Position numbers and translations under genes: made by a program. The notes beneath the pieces are model-generated. The model was not told the origin of the DNA and did not search any database. It worked only from the letters and a program-made list of their open reading frames with translations. A DNA stretch of 64,000 nucleotides from Escherichia coli (GTDB lineage: Bacteria; Pseudomonadota; Gammaproteobacteria; Enterobacterales; Enterobacteriaceae). The DNA lies in assembly GCF_022846255.1 (NCBI RefSeq), contig NZ_AP025682.1. One strand, written 5' to 3'. This document shows, piece after piece, positions 4,030-11,316 of this stretch (the first letter of the stretch is position 1; each line of letters opens with the position of its first letter).

Positions 4030-5253
4030 ATGCGTAAAAAAGAAGAGAATCTGAATACGGCATCAGGATTGCGTATTGCCATGATTTTGCTGGGTATTGC
4101 CGTCACACCTGTGCTGTTGTCATCCTCAAGCCTCGGCAATCAACTTTCCAGCGGCAGTTTAATTAGCGTCGTATTGTTAGGCGGCGTCATTCTGACCTTA
4201 CTTTCAGCCATCACCATTAGCGTGGGAGAAAAAGCCCGCCTGCCAACGTATGGCATTGTGAAATATTCGTTTGGCGAAAAAGGGGCCATCGCCATTAACA
4301 TTTTGATGGCGATAAGTCTGTTCGGCTGGATTGCCGTTACCGCCAATATGTTTGGTCATTCGGTACATGACTTACTGGCTCAACATGGACTGGAAGTTCC
4401 ACTGGCACTGTTAGTGGCGGCTGGCTGTGTCATTTTTGTCGCCTCTACGGCATTTGGCTTTGCCGTTCTGGGAAAAATTGCCCAGGTTGCCGTGCCGGTT
4501 ATCGCGCTGGTGCTGTGTTACATCCTCTATGTGGCAACCCATACCGAAGTGGCAGTACCAGCGGCGATTGTGGAGATGAATACAGGTGTCGCCGTTTCCA
4601 CCGTTGTTGGCACCATTATTGTGCTGGTTGCCACACTGCCTGATTTCGGTAGTTTTGTGCATAACCGCAAACATGCGCTGATTGCCGCAGGCGTGACGTT
4701 TCTGGTTGCCTACCCTCTGCTCTACTGGGCGGGTGCAACGCCGAGCGCCATTAGTGGTCAGGGATCTTTACTGGGTGCGATGGCGGTATTCGGTGCGGTT
4801 CTGCCTGCGGCGCTGTTGTTGATTTTCGCCTGCGTCACCGGTAACGCGGGCAATATGTTCCAGGGCACGCTGGTGGTTTCCACACTGCTTACCCGCTTTC
4901 CCAAATGGCAGATTACCGTGGCGCTGGGTATCCTTTCCGCCATCGTAGGCAGTATGGATATTATGGCGTGGTTTATTCCGTTTCTGCTGTTCCTGGGTAT
5001 CGCCACGCCACCCGTTGCCGGAATTTATATCGCTGACTTTTTCCTTTATCGCCGTAATGGCTATCAAGAGTCAGTGTTAGCCCAGGAGTCACAGATTAAA
5101 GTGCTGACATTCGCAGCATGGATCATAGGCGCAGCGGTTGGCTTTATGACCGTAAAAGGCTTATTCACCCTGACGACGATCCCTTCGGTAGACTCGATTC
5201 TGGTGGCATGTATCGCGTATGCGATTCTCAGTCGGGCAAGTCAACACCGCTAA
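4030..5253 (+). CDS. NCS1-family permease (cytosine/purine/allantoin permease-like)
   Basis: 407-aa polytopic membrane protein with CodB-like sequence; AAGGGA Shine-Dalgarno. Confidence 0.75.
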   Translation: MRKKEENLNTASGLRIAMILLGIAVTPVLLSSSSLGNQLSSGSLISVVLLGGVILTLLSAITISVGEKARLPTYGIVKYSFGEKGAIAINILMAISLFGWIAVTANMFGHSVHDLLAQHGLEVPLALLVAAGCVIFVASTAFGFAVLGKIAQVAVPVIALVLCYILYVATHTEVAVPAAIVEMNTGVAVSTVVGTIIVLVATLPDFGSFVHNRKHALIAAGVTFLVAYPLLYWAGATPSAISGQGSLLGAMAVFGAVLPAALLLIFACVTGNAGNMFQGTLVVSTLLTRFPKWQITVALGILSAIVGSMDIMAWFIPFLLFLGIATPPVAGIYIADFFLYRRNGYQESVLAQESQIKVLTFAAWIIGAAVGFMTVKGLFTLTTIPSVDSILVACIAYAILSRASQHR

Positions 5254-6320: not shown

Positions 6321-8582
6321 TCATCCCCGACGCAAATTCTGCGCCGCCTGCACCATGTTCGCCAGTGCCGCGCGGGTTTCTGGCCAGCCGCGCGTTTTCA
6401 GGCCACAGTCCGGGTTGACCCACAGACGCTCTGCCGGAATGCGTTTTGCCGCTTTCTTCAGCAAGGCTTCAATCCATTCCACGCTCGGTACGTTTGGCGA
6501 GTGAATGTCATAGACGCCAGGACCGATTTCATTTGGATAATCAAACTCTTCAAACGACTCCAGCAACTCCATGTCGGAACGCGAGGTTTCGATGGTGATG
6601 ACGTCTGCGTCCAGCGCCGCAATCGAATCCATGATGTCGTTGAACTCGCAGTAACACATGTGAGTGTGGATTTGTGTGTCATCTTTCGCCACGGCGGCGT
6701 TGATACGGAAAGCCTCCACGCCCCACTGGAGATAGGCATCCCAGTCGCTGCGACGCAGTGGTAAACCTTCGCGCAATGCCGGTTCGTCAATCTGAATGAT
6801 GCCAATTCCAGCGGCTTCCAGGTCCGCCACTTCATCACGCAGCGCCAGCGCAATTTGTTTGGCGATGGTTTCACGGCTGACATCTTCACGCGGGAACGAC
6901 CAGCAGAGAATAGTCACCGGGCCGGTCAACATCCCTTTCACCGGTTTATCAGTCAGGGATTGCGCATATTTTGCCCACTCCACGGTAATCGGTGCCGGGC
7001 GGCTAACGTCACCAATAACAATCGGTGGCTTCACGCAGCGGGAACCGTAGCTCTGTACCCAACCGTTTTGCGTAAAGACAAAGCCATCCAGATGCTCGCC
7101 AAAGTATTCCACCATGTCATTACGCTCGGCCTCGCCATGTACCAGCACATCCAGTCCCAAACGTTCCTGCTCAACAATGGCCTGCTTGATATGTTCCGCA
7201 ATGCCCGTGCGGTAGTTATTGGCGTCGAGATTACCCTTTTTGAAATCCAGACGCAGGGTACGAATCTCCGTGGTTTGCGGGAAGGAACCAATCGTGGTGG
7301 TCGGCCACGCGGGCAGTTTAAAACGCGCACGCTGGGCTTCAGCACGCACTTCATAGACATTCGCACGCTGACTGTCCTGAGCGGTGATCGCCGCCAGACG
7401 CTTTTCTACTGCCGGATTATGTACACGAGTAGAGTGACGACGCGCCTGAATCGGAGCGCTCCACTCTGCCAGAGCTGCCGTATCACCACTGTTCAGCGTA
7501 TCGCGCAGCAATGCCAGTTCATGACATTTTTGCAGGGCGAAGGCAAACCAGCTTTTCACTTCTGCATCAAGACGCGTTTCCACGCTCAGGTCGATGGGGC
7601 TGTGCAGCAACGAGCAGGAAGATGCCACCCACAAATCGCGTTTGCCGACAATGTCCTTAATTTGCGCATATTTCTCGGTAAGATCGGCGCGCCAGACGTT
7701 ACGACCATTGATAAGACCCGCAGACAGCAGCCAGTCAGAAGGCAGACGCTTGTGCAGTTCAGCAACGTCATCTTTACCATGTACGAGATCGACATGCAGA
7801 CCCTGAACAGGCAGCGCAGTAATCGTGTCGAGGTTTGGCGTTACGCCTTCAAAATAGGTAGTCAGCAGCAGTTTCACCTGCCCCTGCAGAGCATCGTAAG
7901 CGGGTTTGTACGCATCCAGCCACGCCTGCGGCAGTTCCAGAACCAGCGCGGGTTCATCAATCTGTACCCACTCGATGCCGCGTTTTGCCAGTTCTGCCAG
8001 CACTTGCTGATAAACCGGCAGAATGTCGTTCAGCAGGCTCAGGCGATCAAACTGTTCACCTTTCACTTTACCCAGCCACAGGTAGGTAACCGGCCCCAGC
8101 AGCACAGGTTTCACCTTGTGGCCCAGCGCCAGCGCCTCGTCCACTTCCTCCAGCAGCTGCGTCCAGGTCAGTTTGAACTGTTGGCCTTTAACGAACTCCG
8201 GCACCATGTAGTGATAGTTGGTGTTAAACCATTTGGTCATTTCCGCTGCCGCCGCAGGTTCGCCAGTCGGTGCACGTCCACGACCAATACGGAACAGGGT
8301 GTCGATATCTACCGAACCATCTTTGTTCTGGTGACGCGCCGGAACGTTACCCAGCAGCAGGCTGGTGGTCAGGACATGATCGTACCAGGCAAAATCACCC
8401 ACCGGCAGCAGGTCGATACCTGCTTGCTTTTGTTGATCCCAGTGACGAGCACGCAGTTCACGCCCTACCGCCAGCAGTTCTTCACGCGTGGAGTTCCCCG
8501 CCCAATAACTCTCTTGCGCTTTTTTCAGCTCGCGACGCAGGCCAACGCGAGGGAAACCGAGGGTGTGATTAAGAATTGTCAT
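6321..8582 (-). CDS. metE: cobalamin-independent methionine synthase
   Basis: 753-aa product matching E. coli MetE ([29 protein letters not shown]...). Confidence 0.97.
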
Positions 8583-8687
8583 TATATGCCCCTTATGGAA
8601 TTTTTAGTATTTAGCCGTCCAGATGTTTACACATCCATAATTGGCGGTTACTGTATATTCCTCAAGCGCAAATTATTCATGCCGAAG

Positions 8688-8700
8688 TGAAGGACTTTCA
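8688..8700. promoter_or_regulatory. candidate MetR box (TGAA-N5-TTCA) in the metE-metR divergent control region
   Basis: TGAAGGACTTTCA matches the MetR consensus as I recall it; adjacent degenerate tandem met-box-like octamers at 8621-8636. Confidence 0.35.
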
Positions 8701-9653
8701 TGATCGAAGTAAAACACCTGAAAACGCTACAAGCGTTGCGGAACTGCGGCTCACTCGCAGCCGCTGCGGCGACGTTGCATCAAACGCAATCCGCCCTGTC
8801 TCACCAGTTTAGCGATCTGGAACAACGCCTTGGCTTCCGGCTATTTGTGCGTAAGAGCCAGCCGCTACGCTTTACACCGCAGGGAGAAATCCTGTTGCAA
8901 CTGGCAAACCAGGTACTGCCGCAAATTAGCCAGGCACTGCAAGCCTGCAATGAACCGCAGCAGACGCGTCTGCGCATTGCCATAGAGTGCCATAGCTGTA
9001 TTCAGTGGCTGACGCCCGCATTAGAAAGTTTCCATAAGAACTGGCCGCAGGTGGAGATGGATTTTAAATCGGGCGTAACGTTTGATCCGCAGCCTGCGTT
9101 GCAACAGGGCGAGCTGGATCTGGTGATGACGTCCGATATTCTGCCGCGCAGTGGCCTGCATTATTCGCCGATGTTCGACTATGAAGTGCGTCTGGTGTTA
9201 GCACCTGACCATCCACTGGCGGCAAAAACGCGTATTACACCGGAAGATCTCGCCAGCGAAACGCTGTTGATTTATCCGGTGCAGCGTAGCCGACTGGATG
9301 TCTGGAGGCATTTTCTTCAGCCAGCAGGCGTCAGCCCGTCACTGAAAAGCGTCGATAACACCTTATTGTTGATTCAGATGGTTGCCGCACGGATGGGTAT
9401 TGCCGCACTACCGCATTGGGTGGTGGAGAGTTTTGAACGCCAGGGTCTGGTGGTCACCAAAACCCTGGGCGAAGGCTTGTGGAGCCGACTGTACGCCGCC
9501 GTGCGCGATGGCGAGCAGCGTCAGCCGATTACAGAAGCGTTTATTCGTTCAGCGCGCAATCACGCCTGCGATCATCTGCCGTTTGTGAAGAGCGCGGAGC
9601 GACCCACTTACGATGCACCCACAGTGAGGCCAGGATCACCAGCGCGCCTGTAA
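8700..9653 (+). CDS. metR: LysR-family methionine regulator MetR
   Basis: 317-aa product matching MetR ([45 protein letters not shown]...). Confidence 0.95.
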
Positions 9654-10440
9654 TAAACGTTGGCCAGTGCGGCTGTTGGTGCCAGATAGCCAGGTTTACC
9701 AGCAGCCCTGCCGGAACGTGCATATTATTCATAATGCCCAGCGTTCCGGCGTCCACCTGCGTCGCGCCGTAGTTCCACATAAAGTAGCCAATCCCGGAAG
9801 CCACCACGCCAAGAAACACCAGAATGCCCCATTGCAACGTGGTTTGCGGCATTTTCTGCGCATTTCCCAGCAAGAACCATGCAATCACTGCCACCAGGAA
9901 CGCGCCAAGATAGAACCACGCAAAGGCGTTATGCTGCGGCATCGGGCGAGTTTCCATCAGACGTTTGTAACCCACCATGCCGATGGCAAAAGTGATATTG
10001 GAGAGTTGCACCAGCAATAAGCCAGTCCAGAAATGGTCGGTGACCTGATCATAGCGAATAATCCCGGCACCAATCACCGCCAACAAGGCGCTAAAAGCAT
10101 AGCCCCAGCGCAGACGGCGCTTACTCATGATGTCATAAATCAGCGTGATGTAGAGCGGCGTCAGTACGGTGAACAGCAACAGTTCGGAGACCGTCAGGTA
10201 GAGATAGGCGCGGAAACTCAGCATATACATCACACCGAGCTGCATCGCGCCCACCAGCATACACAGGCCAACCGTTTTCAGGCTATTGCCACGGGTGCGC
10301 AGAAACGGCAGAAAAACGAGTGCCGCCAGACCAACGCGCACCAGCACCGCAAAATAGCTATCGACGTGCCCCGCAAGGTACTCGCCATAAAAGCTAAAGG
10401 AGAAGGCCCACAGAATCGTGGTGATGATAAGTAGCGCCAC
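9541..10440 (-). CDS. yigM: EamA/DMT-family inner membrane transporter YigM (biotin transporter BioP)
   Basis: ORF 9541..10515; start placed at in-frame GTG giving about 299 aa as I recall for K-12; 3' end overlaps metR 3' end convergently. Confidence 0.8.
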
Positions 10441-10515
10441 AATGGAAAACTCTTTGATTAACGAGTATCCATTGTAGCGAAGTATCAGGTTGACAACTGA
10501 CCAAATAAAGAACAA

Positions 10516-11316
10516 TTACGATAAATAGAGCTTACGCAGATAATGCGGCACTGCGTCTTCGGCGTTAGTACCAATCACTTCCAGCTCTGGATGCAGATCT
10601 TTCAGCCGTTGATGCGCGCTGCCCATAATGCAGCCTTTCCCCGCCATCGACAGCATTTCGGCATCGTTCATTCCATCGCCAAAGGCAATACAATCTTGCA
10701 GGCTGTAGCCCAGTTTCTTCGCCACCGCTTCCAGCGCATGGCCTTTTGAAACGCCGCCCGCCATCACTTCCAGGCAGGTTAAGGTAGAGAAACTGACATT
10801 GACGCGATCTCCCCAGCGAGCGTTAATCGCCTGCTCCAGTGGCAGAAGTTTTTCATGGGAATCGCAGGTGAAGAACACTTTGCTGACGCCTTCCGGCTCC
10901 AGCAATCCCGGCTCATACAGCGCATATTTGAACACCGCTTCTTTAAAAAAGCGCATCTCTTCCGGGCGATGGCGATTCATAAACCATTCGTCGTCGCGAT
11001 AAACGTTAGTAATGATGTCCGGATTGTCGTTGACTACGCCAAACAGGTCACTGGCAATGTCGCGATCCAGGTTATGAGCAAAAATCAGGTTGCCATCGAG
11101 GTCGTGAACGCGCGCGCCATTGGAGGTAATCATGTAAGACTTAATCTCCAGATTATCGCGAATTTGCCCCACATCAACGTGGTGACGACCGGTCGCAAAC
11201 ACAAAGTTGATGCCGCGCGCGGTGAGCAGCTTCAGAGTTTCTTTGGCGTAAGGGGATAACGTATGGTCGGGAGAAAGTAACGTGCCATCTAAATCAGACG
11301 CAACAACCTGGTACAT
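10516..11316 (-). CDS. yigL: HAD-family sugar phosphatase YigL
   Basis: MYQVVASDLDGTLLSPDH... 266 aa from internal ATG of ORF 10516..11442; 7 nt downstream of pldB stop. Confidence 0.9.
   Translation of the reverse strand: MYQVVASDLDGTLLSPDHTLSPYAKETLKLLTARGINFVFATGRHHVDVGQIRDNLEIKSYMITSNGARVHDLDGNLIFAHNLDRDIASDLFGVVNDNPDIITNVYRDDEWFMNRHRPEEMRFFKEAVFKYALYEPGLLEPEGVSKVFFTCDSHEKLLPLEQAINARWGDRVNVSFSTLTCLEVMAGGVSKGHALEAVAKKLGYSLQDCIAFGDGMNDAEMLSMAGKGCIMGSAHQRLKDLHPELEVIGTNAEDAVPHYLRKLYLS

What the first reader, a model, noticed from the sequence alone, without database searches (positions are those of the whole stretch)
9541..9653. Convergent 113-nt overlap of the metR and yigM 3' ends
metR (+, stop at 9653) and yigM (-, stop at 9541) overlap tail-to-tail by 113 nt, so each gene's terminator region lies inside the other's coding sequence. 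Convergent transcription over a shared segment can cause transcriptional interference or antisense pairing between the two mRNAs. metR is autoregulated and methionine-responsive, so yigM expression could be coupled to it.
Basis: seen in the sequence. Interest (0 to 1): 0.25.

Follow-up and report, generated by a model that had tools for sequence, protein, structure and literature searches.

The report
Real but ordinary metR–bioP tail overlap
The methionine regulator gene metR and the biotin transporter gene bioP (yigM) of E. coli do share 113 bases at their ends, but the overlap is already annotated and published, and it looks like an ancient frozen accident made of two dispensable protein tails, not a regulatory device.

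Summary
metR (+, 8700-9653, 317 aa) and bioP/yigM (-, 9541-10440, 299 aa) overlap tail-to-tail by 113 nt. RefSeq annotates the overlap the same way, and Côté et al. 2016 remarked on it.

In 80 Enterobacteriaceae species the distance from the metR start to the yigM start is always 1741 nt, with no indels. Yersinia, Chimaeribacter, Pectobacterium and a Dickeya-like contig share this geometry.

Site-by-site diversity splits the overlap into three parts:
- 9543-9587 evolves as metR only, so YigM residues 285-299 are a passenger tail.
- 9606-9653 evolves as yigM only, so MetR residues 303-317 are a passenger tail.
- Only about 18 nt (9588-9605) are doubly constrained.

Each stop codon is the antisense of a conserved Phe-Ile in the partner gene. 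The tail lengths match the chance open run in this antisense phase (median 15 codons). Serratia/Gibbsiella and Erwinia have lost the overlap through insertions at the doubly constrained zone.

I found no intrinsic terminator, conserved hairpin or Rfam element. Published data place a Rho-dependent termination region on the yigM strand.

Regulatory coupling between metR and yigM is possible but nothing here supports it. The feature is already known and of low interest.

The parts
8700..9653 (+). metR coding sequence (317 aa, LysR-type activator of metE/metH), stop TAA 9651-9653
   Evidence: ORF list and sequence. NF011950 MetR equivalog, 739 bits against a cut-off of 382, aligned 1-317 of 317. 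Pfam HTH_1 5-63 and LysR_substrate 86-288. RefSeq annotation.
9541..10440 (-). bioP (yigM) coding sequence (299 aa, EamA/DMT biotin transporter), GTG start at 10440, stop TAA read as TTA at 9541-9543 on the plus strand
   Evidence: TIGR00950, 308 bits against a cut-off of 230. Pfam EamA reaches residue 275. RefSeq names it 'bioP: biotin transporter'. Function from Côté et al. 2016.
9541..9653 (.). The 113-nt convergent overlap, in phase 123:132 (codon position 1 opposite 1, 2 opposite 3, 3 opposite 2)
   Evidence: Coordinates. Phase read directly from the two frames. Among the 80 Enterobacteriaceae sequences the overlap is 113 nt in 71, 116 nt in 6, 98 nt in 2 and 68 nt in 1.
9543..9587 (.). 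metR-dominated zone. It encodes conserved MetR residues 282-296 ([15 protein letters not shown]). On the other strand it encodes YigM residues 285-299 as a passenger tail.
   Evidence: Variation sits at metR third positions. metR 4-fold sites here have pi 0.41 against 0.42 outside the overlap, while the yigM third positions opposite them (metR second positions) are nearly invariant, pi 0-0.04. Serratia and Erwinia YigM (286-287 aa) lack the tail. L024 and the Salmonella clusters P0075 and P0077 are natural 284-285 aa truncations.
9588..9605 (.). Doubly constrained junction. The same bases encode MetR K297-P302 (KSAERP) and YigM W279-S284 (WVAPRS).
   Evidence: Bases 9594-9605 are essentially invariant at all three codon positions. 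4-fold sites have pi 0.0 for metR and 0.12 for yigM, against 0.42 and 0.46 elsewhere. The 101-nt Serratia insertion maps exactly here.
9606..9653 (.). yigM-dominated zone. It encodes the end of YigM TM10 (residues 263-278, ..[16 protein letters not shown]). On the other strand it encodes MetR residues 303-317 plus the stop as a passenger tail.
   Evidence: Variation sits at yigM third positions, which are metR second positions. yigM 4-fold sites have pi 0.51 against 0.46 outside, and MetR residues 303-317 are hypervariable. MetR length ranges from 311 to 318 aa among the species with an overlap. Homology to the solved MetR regulatory domain 4ab5 stops at residue 296.
9654..9656 (+). Second in-frame metR stop codon (TAA). 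It catches read-through in species whose first stop has mutated, giving 318 aa and a 116-nt overlap.
   Evidence: It is a stop in 67 of 80 species. Both metR stops are the antisense of the invariant YigM F262-I263 codons (TTT ATT).
9540..9545 (+). TTTATT, encoding MetR F281-I282. Its antisense provides the yigM TAA stop.
   Evidence: All six bases are invariant in the 80 species. This fixes the yigM stop position wherever the overlap exists.
9710..9750 (.). Perfect hairpin 58 nt downstream of the metR stop, inside yigM. Considered as a terminator and rejected.
   Evidence: Folded. In 80 species the three variable stem pairs are paired at chance frequency (44%, 31% and 41% observed against 44%, 28% and 39% in shuffles). 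The palindrome is a by-product of the AGT and VPA codons.
9812..9812 (-). Published Rho termination region on the yigM strand (MG1655 4011704). Positional resolution is hundreds of nt.
   Evidence: Adams et al. 2021, eLife, supplementary file 2: Rho score 5.07, p = 1.3e-12. Read counts upstream/downstream were 98/21 untreated and 300/326 with BCM. Coordinate conversion uses.

Best explanation
This is a genuine, ancient convergent gene overlap that persists as a frozen accident. It is not a dedicated regulatory element.

Proposed origin and persistence:
1. In an ancestor of the Enterobacteriaceae, Erwiniaceae, Pectobacteriaceae and Yersiniaceae, yigM and metR came to lie tail-to-tail with no spacer.
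2. The native ends of the two proteins (YigM up to about WVAP, MetR up to about AERP) ended up encoded on the same ~18 nt (9588-9605).
3. Beyond that junction, each ribosome reads on through the antisense of the partner's conserved C-terminal region until the first stop. In both directions that stop is the antisense of a conserved Phe-Ile (TTTATT).
4. This adds about 15 residues to each protein (YigM 285-299, MetR 303-317). Each extra tail has no detectable constraint of its own.
5. The frames are in the 123:132 phase, so every synonymous third position of the constrained gene is a second position of the passenger tail. The tails therefore drift freely and cost the partner nothing.
6. Any indel would frameshift both genes, so the geometry is frozen at 1741 nt from start to start.
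7. Escape needs an insertion or duplication at the junction. That appears to have happened in the Serratia/Gibbsiella clade and in Erwinia.

Transcription: there is no intrinsic terminator, so each mRNA must run into the partner gene. It probably ends by Rho-dependent termination once its ribosomes leave at the stop codon. This is shown by published BCM data for the yigM strand and is inferred for the metR strand.

The main practical consequence is genetic. Deleting one gene damages the other.
For: Shown here:
- The overlap and both reading frames are confirmed.
- The start-to-start distance is exactly 1741 nt in all 80 Enterobacteriaceae sequences. It is also 1741 nt in Yersinia, Pectobacterium and the Dickeya-like contig and in Chimaeribacter.
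- The overlap has a three-zone selection pattern. 4-fold-site diversity is normal for the dominant gene in each flank (0.41 against 0.42 for metR, 0.51 against 0.46 for yigM) and collapses only at 9588-9605.
- Stop positions shift by point mutation in several lineages: MetR 312 or 318 aa, YigM 284 aa.
- Where the overlap is absent, YigM is 286-287 aa and ends just after WVAP/WIIG. More distant homologues, including Vibrio, are 282-296 aa and are not next to metR.
- Serratia equals the overlapped geometry plus a 101-nt insertion exactly at the doubly constrained zone.
- The Serratia metR tail is still 17/36 nt identical to the Chimaeribacter tail (shuffle p about 0.004). The Erwinia metR tail keeps the 9 bases GGTGTACCC (Gly-Val-Pro) that follow RPNA in Pectobacterium and Yersinia; the preceding Ala codon reads GCT in Erwinia as in Pectobacterium. 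In Pectobacterium that stretch is the antisense of yigM WVHQ. This suggests the shared segment was duplicated.
- The chance open run in this antisense phase has a median of 15 codons.
- There is no terminator, conserved hairpin, significant fold or Rfam hit.

From the literature:
- The Keio metR deletion also abolishes BioP function (PMC5120140). The authors' primers show that their metR deletion ends at 9632, which cuts YigM after about residue 269. Their own yigM deletion was designed to stop at 9676, which spares metR.
- A Rho termination region lies on the yigM strand (PMC7815308).
- Long convergent overlaps are the only class of overlaps over 60 bp judged possibly real: 54 among 338 genomes (PMC2478687).
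Against: - Conservation of an overlap across three families could also reflect selection for a function I cannot see in sequence.
- YigM E299 and the TTTATT at 9540-9545 are invariant even at positions where synonymous or tolerated changes exist.
- metR 2-fold sites in the metR-dominated zone are less variable than elsewhere (0.16 against 0.33), but with n = 4 this is inconclusive.
- The polarity (overlap ancestral, Serratia and Erwinia derived) rests on parsimony over a few sampled genera and on my recollection of the family-level phylogeny. Hafniaceae, Morganellaceae and Budviciaceae were not sampled.
- The evidence for duplication relics is short-sequence statistics (p about 0.004-0.01), and the alignment register was chosen after inspection.
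- Rho dependence on the metR strand is inferred, not shown.
- The YigM structure model is of low confidence (mean pLDDT 54).
Confidence: 0.75

Rival explanations
1. Regulatory coupling. Convergent transcription through the shared 113 nt causes RNA polymerase collision or sense-antisense RNA pairing. MetJ- and MetR-controlled metR transcription would then modulate biotin transporter expression, or the reverse.
For: The geometry forces transcripts to overlap, and no terminator lies between the genes. Collision-driven termination at convergent E. coli gene pairs is documented in general (bioRxiv 10.1101/2022.10.23.513370). Blocking Rho raises yigM-strand read-through about 5-fold, so antisense metR RNA can be made. 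There is physiological logic, from my own knowledge: biotin synthesis consumes S-adenosylmethionine at the BioC, BioA and BioB steps. The overlap is old and conserved.
Against: There is no excess constraint on synonymous sites, no conserved structure and no Rfam family. No Term-seq 3' end is listed for either gene, and read counts are low. Serratia/Gibbsiella and Erwinia dispense with the overlap. No paper links yigM with metJ. The collision model needs a hairpin at the overlap and reasonably active promoters, and neither is evident here.
Confidence: 0.1
2. The C-terminal tails are themselves functional and the overlap is maintained by selection on both proteins. For example, the acidic/basic YigM tail [10 protein letters not shown] could act in folding or regulation, and the Pro-rich MetR tail in protein contacts.
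For: The YigM tail length is fixed at 299 aa in nearly all overlapped species, and E299 is invariant. MetR keeps a 9-16 residue tail even where there is no overlap. P307 is nearly invariant.
Against: The fixed YigM stop and most conserved tail residues are explained by invariant partner codons. 4-fold sites of the dominant gene are not depleted of variation. The tails vary or are truncated naturally and are absent in Serratia and Erwinia. MetR P307 is the antisense of the invariant YigM W274.
Confidence: 0.1
3. Annotation artefact: one of the stop codons or frames is wrong, and the real proteins end before the overlap.
For: Many annotated overlaps longer than 60 bp are mispredictions, including 124 of 178 convergent ones (PMC2478687). 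Distant YigM homologues are 5-15 residues shorter.
Against: A C-terminal end is set by the first in-frame stop and does not depend on start-codon prediction. Both frames are intact and colinear in thousands of genomes and in 80+ species. The doubly constrained zone shows that both frames are under selection up to 9605 and 9588 respectively, so at least ~18 nt of true dual coding exists. Removing 9541-9632 abolishes BioP function.
Confidence: 0.02

Closest known systems
Conserved convergent (3'-3') overlapping gene pairs in the 123:132 phase (Rogozin et al. 2002, Trends Genet; cited from memory and through the table in Pallejà et al. 2008)
   Same: Two bona fide conserved genes overlap at their 3' ends by more than 15 nt. 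The overlap is conserved in many genomes. The frames are in the phase where the second position of one codon faces the third position of the other, so the two sequences constrain each other's amino-acid changes as little as possible. The origin is read-on to the next stop in the partner's antisense.
   Different: At 113 nt it is much longer than typical convergent overlaps, and it is conserved across three families. [quoted passage not shown] Here the overlap can be split into two passenger zones and an ~18-nt truly dual-coded core.
Bidirectional or overlapping terminators at convergent E. coli gene pairs, e.g. ynaJ-uspE (Ju et al. 2019; Wang et al. preprint)
   Same: A convergent gene pair whose transcripts must overlap at their 3' ends.
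   Different: Those sites lie between the genes, have a hairpin in the overlapping transcribed region and give sharp 3' ends. Here the genes themselves overlap, no conserved hairpin or defined 3' end was found, and the yigM strand is Rho-sensitive, whereas those terminators are described as Rho-independent.
Excludon-type antisense regulation (Listeria) and transcriptional interference between convergent promoters (Callen et al. 2004; both from memory)
   Same: Overlapping transcription from opposite strands of neighbouring genes is the proposed mode of action.
   Different: Those systems have long antisense transcripts or strong face-to-face promoters, with demonstrated reciprocal expression. 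Nothing of that kind is documented for metR and yigM.
holD-rimI, the longest accepted co-directional overlap in enterobacteria (Pallejà et al. 2008)
   Same: An overlap conserved among Escherichia, Salmonella and Yersinia and accepted as real on the basis of ortholog length consistency.
   Different: It is co-directional and shorter than 60 bp, and it involves translational coupling in one mRNA. metR and yigM are on opposite strands and on separate mRNAs.

Membership tests
Conserved convergent overlapping gene pair (Rogozin 2002 class) | Both partners are real, conserved protein-coding genes | tested here: met
   MetR equivalog NF011950 at 739 bits against 382; YigM TIGR00950 at 308 bits against 230. 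Each gene shows a codon-position diversity pattern typical of purifying selection. BioP function is published.
Conserved convergent overlapping gene pair (Rogozin 2002 class) | 3' ends overlap by more than 15 nt and the overlap is conserved in two or more genomes | tested here: met
   113 nt in E. coli. The overlap is 68-116 nt in all 80 Enterobacteriaceae sequences analysed (window plus 79 loci; an 81st locus, L066, was left out because its metR matches only in part). It is also present in Yersinia, Chimaeribacter, Pectobacterium and a Dickeya-like contig.
Conserved convergent overlapping gene pair (Rogozin 2002 class) | 123:132 phase (position 2 of one gene faces position 3 of the other) | tested here: met
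   Read from the frames: 9541 is metR position 2 and yigM position 3, 9542 is metR position 3 and yigM position 2, and 9543 is position 1 in both.
Bidirectional intrinsic or collision terminator at a convergent pair (Ju 2019 / Wang 2022) | Hairpin-forming sequence in the overlapping transcribed region | tested here: not met
   No terminator-like site lies in or next to the overlap; the only one on the metR strand (9254-9266) lies inside metR, about 275 nt upstream of the overlap. Fold z-scores are -1.7 and -1.2. The hairpin at 9710-9750 is not maintained by covariation.
Bidirectional intrinsic or collision terminator at a convergent pair (Ju 2019 / Wang 2022) | Sharp, Rho-independent, overlapping 3' ends of both transcripts | tested here: inconclusive
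   No Term-seq 3' end is listed for metR or yigM in Adams et al. 2021, and the yigM strand is Rho-sensitive. The SEnd-seq tables of Ju et al. were not available to me.
Antisense or transcriptional-interference regulatory pair (excludon-like) | Reciprocal expression of the two genes that depends on convergent transcription | not testable with these tools
   Needs expression measurements. No paper was found that links yigM and metJ.
Mis-annotated 3'-end extension (Pallejà class iii) | Gene length differs significantly from its orthologs | tested here: not met
   YigM is 299 aa in almost all of the top 120 homologues from many genera. The MetR model covers 317 of 317 positions. Only lineages that have physically separated the genes have the shorter 286-287 aa YigM.

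The most novel reading that the evidence does not exclude
The frozen overlap might have been co-opted as a Rho- or collision-dependent switch that links the methionine/SAM regulon to biotin uptake. When MetJ repression lifts, increased metR transcription into the 3' end of yigM would alter the amount of full-length bioP mRNA. That would couple the supply of SAM, which is consumed at three steps of biotin synthesis, to biotin scavenging. My evidence neither shows this nor excludes it. It would be a rare case of two vitamin/cofactor pathways wired together through shared coding DNA.
Probability: 0.06. Interest if true: 0.5.

Novelty: already known. Interest (0 to 1): 0.18.

Why it matters
The main value is practical and illustrative.

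1. Anyone deleting or tagging metR or bioP must allow for the overlap. The Keio metR deletion removes YigM residues from about 270 to 299 and scores as a biotin-transport mutant. A C-terminal tag on either gene disrupts the other.

2. The locus is a clean natural example of how a long convergent overlap can persist without function. It has an ~18-nt truly dual-coded core flanked by two unconstrained run-on tails. The geometry has stayed indel-free across three bacterial families. Two lineages appear to have escaped by duplication or insertion at the core.

3. It does not open a new regulatory question unless expression coupling is demonstrated.

Tried and rejected
- Intrinsic terminators: the consensus scan of 8400-10800 found none in or near the overlap, and the total was at the shuffle expectation.
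- RNA structure: both strands around the overlap fold no better than shuffles (z = -1.7 and -1.2).
- Hairpin 9710-9750: the perfect E. coli hairpin downstream of the metR stop looked like a candidate terminator. Its three variable stem pairs are paired at chance frequency across 80 species, so I rejected it as a by-product of codons.
- Rfam: a permissive scan of 8400-10700 found nothing.
- Published 3'-end data: the Adams 2021 tables hold only one relevant row, the Rho region on the yigM strand. Dar & Sorek 2018 and Choe 2022 have no supplementary text held.
- Pallejà 2008 overlap lists do not contain metR, yigM, b3827 or b3828.
- Finkenwirth 2013 does not mention metR or the overlap.
- A literature search for yigM with metJ returned nothing.
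- Selection against stops in the YigM tail: I asked whether T/C-ending V296 codons avoid an A-starting codon 297. The counts were 1 of 23 against 6 of 57, which is no signal, and one species (L024) does carry the stop.
- AlphaFold model of YigM from a 14-sequence alignment: mean pLDDT was 54. The last helix ends at 279 and residues 282-299 have pLDDT below 50. This is consistent with a disordered tail but too weak to rely on.
- Outgroup context: the closest non-Enterobacterales homologues (Vibrio and others, 49-51% identity) are not next to metR, so they cannot show a pre-overlap adjacent state.
- The genome-contig scan returned only Enterobacteriaceae. I sampled the other families one protein at a time.

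Full report
**1. Observation**

The window is the E. coli metE-metR-bioP(yigM)-yigL-pldB region.

- metR is on the plus strand at 8700-9653 (317 aa). Its stop is TAA at 9651-9653, followed at once by a second TAA.
- On the minus strand an ORF ends with TAA (TTA at 9541-9543 on the plus strand) and is open up to 10515.
- RefSeq annotates the minus-strand gene as bioP, a biotin transporter of 299 aa that starts at the GTG at 10440. RefSeq places metR and bioP so that they share 113 nt, both in the best-matching strain and in MG1655 (bioP 4011076-4011975, metR 4011863-4012816).
- The segment is present at 95% identity or more in 5425 of 5426 complete E. coli genomes.
- MetR matches the NCBIfam MetR equivalog over all 317 positions (739 bits, cut-off 382). 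YigM matches TIGR00950 (308 bits, cut-off 230).

The finding is therefore correct to the base. Its own refutation criterion, shorter reference proteins, is not met.

**2. What is inside the overlap**

- The Pfam domains end at MetR residue 288 and YigM residue 275.
- Homology to the solved Neisseria MetR regulatory domain (4ab5/4ab6) runs to MetR residue 296.
- So the overlap consists of the last turn of each folded part plus two C-terminal tails.
- The two frames are in the 123:132 phase. Position 1 faces position 1, and position 2 of one gene faces the wobble position of the other.
- As I recall it, Rogozin et al. (2002) found this phase over-represented among conserved convergent overlaps. 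Pallejà et al. cite that work.

**3. Conservation**

A scan of one genome per species with a YigM alignment returned 80 loci, all from Enterobacteriaceae.

- In all 79 usable loci plus the window, the distance from the metR start to the yigM start is exactly 1741 nt, with no indel.
- The overlap is 113 nt in 71 sequences.
- It is 116 nt in 6, where the first metR stop has mutated and the second is used.
- It is 98 nt in 2, which have a premature MetR stop at codon 313.
- It is 68 nt in 1 (L024), which has a YigM stop at codon 285. Salmonella protein clusters of 284-285 aa show the same YigM truncation.

Outside that family the picture is as follows.

| Lineage | Arrangement |
|---|---|
| Yersinia | 113-nt overlap, 1741-nt geometry |
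| Chimaeribacter | 116-nt overlap, 1741-nt geometry |
| Pectobacterium | 95-nt overlap, 1741-nt geometry |
| Dickeya-like contig | 98-nt overlap, 1741-nt geometry |
| Serratia | no overlap, 36-nt spacer; YigM 286 aa, MetR 314 aa |
| Gibbsiella | no overlap, 327-nt spacer; YigM 286 aa, MetR 314 aa |
| Erwinia | no overlap; a DUF1456 gene lies between the two genes |
| Vibrio and other distant homologues (49-51% identity) | 282-296 aa, not next to metR |

**4. Selection pattern**

Nucleotide diversity by codon position across the 80 colinear sequences shows a sharp hand-over inside the overlap.

- **9543-9587.** Variation sits at metR third positions. MetR residues 282-296 are almost invariant. 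metR 4-fold sites are as variable as in the rest of the gene (0.41 against 0.42). The YigM tail 285-299, read from the other strand, simply follows.
- **9606-9653.** The pattern is reversed. yigM 4-fold sites have diversity 0.51 against 0.46 elsewhere, and MetR residues 303-317 are hypervariable.
- **9588-9605.** Both sets of 4-fold sites are frozen (0.0 and 0.12). This stretch encodes MetR KSAERP and YigM WVAPRS on the same bases.

So true dual coding covers about 18 nt. The other ~95 nt are single-gene coding sequence with a passenger reading frame on top.

**5. Why the stops are where they are**

- The yigM stop is the antisense of MetR F281-I282 (TTT ATT, all six bases invariant).
- The two metR stops are the antisense of the invariant YigM F262-I263.
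- A synonymous ATT to ATC change in that YigM Ile codon turns the metR TAA into TGA. This is the polymorphism actually seen.
- In this antisense phase, the local genes have a stop frequency of 0.03-0.07 per codon and a median open run of 15 codons.
- Run-on tails of about 15 codons on each side are therefore what chance predicts.

**6. Origin and escape**

- A Serratia alignment against Yersinia or Chimaeribacter is colinear apart from a single 101-nt insertion. The insertion lies exactly at the doubly constrained zone.
- The insertion carries a new short YigM end (KQIG*), a spacer with a GGGCCA/TGGCCC inverted repeat, and the MetR tail.
- That MetR tail is still 17/36 nt identical, ungapped, to the Chimaeribacter tail (shuffle p about 0.004).
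- The Erwinia metR tail keeps the 9 bases GGTGTACCC (Gly-Val-Pro) that follow RPNA in Pectobacterium and Yersinia, and its preceding Ala codon reads GCT as in Pectobacterium. In Pectobacterium that stretch is the antisense of yigM WVHQ.
- These relics, together with the identical 1741-nt geometry in three families, suggest that the overlap is ancestral and was resolved at least twice by duplication or insertion at the junction.
- This step is inference. It rests on few genera, on short sequences and on my recollection of the family tree.

**7. Transcription**

- There is no intrinsic terminator in or near the overlap.
- No fold is significant, and there is no Rfam hit.
- The one good hairpin (9710-9750) is not maintained by covariation.
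- Adams et al. 2021 list a Rho termination region on the yigM strand at MG1655 4011704, which is window position 9812. The Rho score is 5.07, and downstream coverage rises from 21 to 326 reads with bicyclomycin. They list no Term-seq 3' end for either gene.
- Rho therefore normally limits yigM-strand transcription antisense to metR.
- I infer the same for metR transcripts once ribosomes leave at 9653.
- Collision-driven termination at convergent pairs exists in E. coli. It needs a hairpin and active promoters, and neither is evident here.

**8. Prior knowledge**

- Côté et al. [quoted passage not shown] They show that a metR deletion is synthetic lethal with bioA and sensitive to a BioA inhibitor, as a yigM deletion is.
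- Their primer table shows that the metR deletion ends at window position 9632, which removes YigM from about residue 270 onward. Their own yigM deletion stops at 9676, which spares metR.
- Pallejà et al. 2008 found that, among overlaps longer than 60 bp in 338 genomes, only convergent ones could be real (54 candidates). Most of those were conserved only in close relatives. Their lists do not name this pair.

**9. Verdict**

- The regulatory half is unsupported, although it has not been excluded experimentally.
- The best explanation is a frozen, selectively near-neutral overlap with two passenger tails and Rho-dependent transcript ends (confidence about 0.75).
- The overlap is already annotated and published. 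What this analysis adds is the 18-nt dual-coded core, the indel-free geometry across three families, the Phe-Ile antisense stops and the apparent escape by duplication.
- Interest is low (0.18).
- The most novel reading still open is that the overlap couples the methionine/SAM regulon to biotin uptake. I give that about 6%.

Noticed in passing
window 6855-8690 (+): A 611-aa mechanical ORF runs antisense to almost the whole of metE. It is probably a shadow ORF produced by metE codon bias.
   Followed up: no
window 9710-9750: Perfect 10-bp-stem hairpin inside yigM, 58 nt past the metR stop. It arises from the reverse-complementary codon sets for AGT and VPA, and its wobble pairs do not covary in 80 species.
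   Followed up: yes
window 10441-10515 (-): The 75-nt yigL-yigM spacer is open in the yigM frame up to a TTG that abuts the yigL stop, while the annotated start is GTG 10440. It holds a promoter-like TTGTCA...TACAAT with a short spacer and an AAGAG Shine-Dalgarno sequence.
   Followed up: partly
L092 3362-3688 (Gibbsiella): The 327-nt spacer that separates yigM and metR in Gibbsiella is filled with several copies of a REP-like palindromic repeat (CCCTCTCCCTGTGGGAGAGGG...GGGTGAGGG). The opened gap seems to have become a landing site for repeats.
   Followed up: no
L066 (Leclercia adecarboxylata NCTC13032), about 4379-4699: metR matches only over residues 17-114 by tblastn. It is either a disrupted gene or an assembly or frameshift error. 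This locus was excluded from the diversity analysis.
   Followed up: no
L086 3410-3886 (Erwinia toletana): A 158-aa DUF1456 gene sits between yigM and metR, on the metR strand. This is the second independent way in which the overlap has been lost.
   Followed up: partly
L024 (Enterobacteriaceae MGYG-HGUT-00110); protein clusters P0075, P0077, P0063: Natural YigM variants of 284-285 aa. In L024 a synonymous metR V296 GTC next to an AGG codon creates a TGA in the yigM frame. Dozens of Salmonella member sequences carry similar truncations, which argues that the tail is dispensable.
   Followed up: partly
L085 3362-3397 (Serratia marcescens): The 36-nt spacer created by the Serratia insertion holds a GGGCCA/TGGCCC inverted repeat followed by AAGTTTAT. 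It may be a small bidirectional terminator acquired after the genes separated.
   Followed up: no
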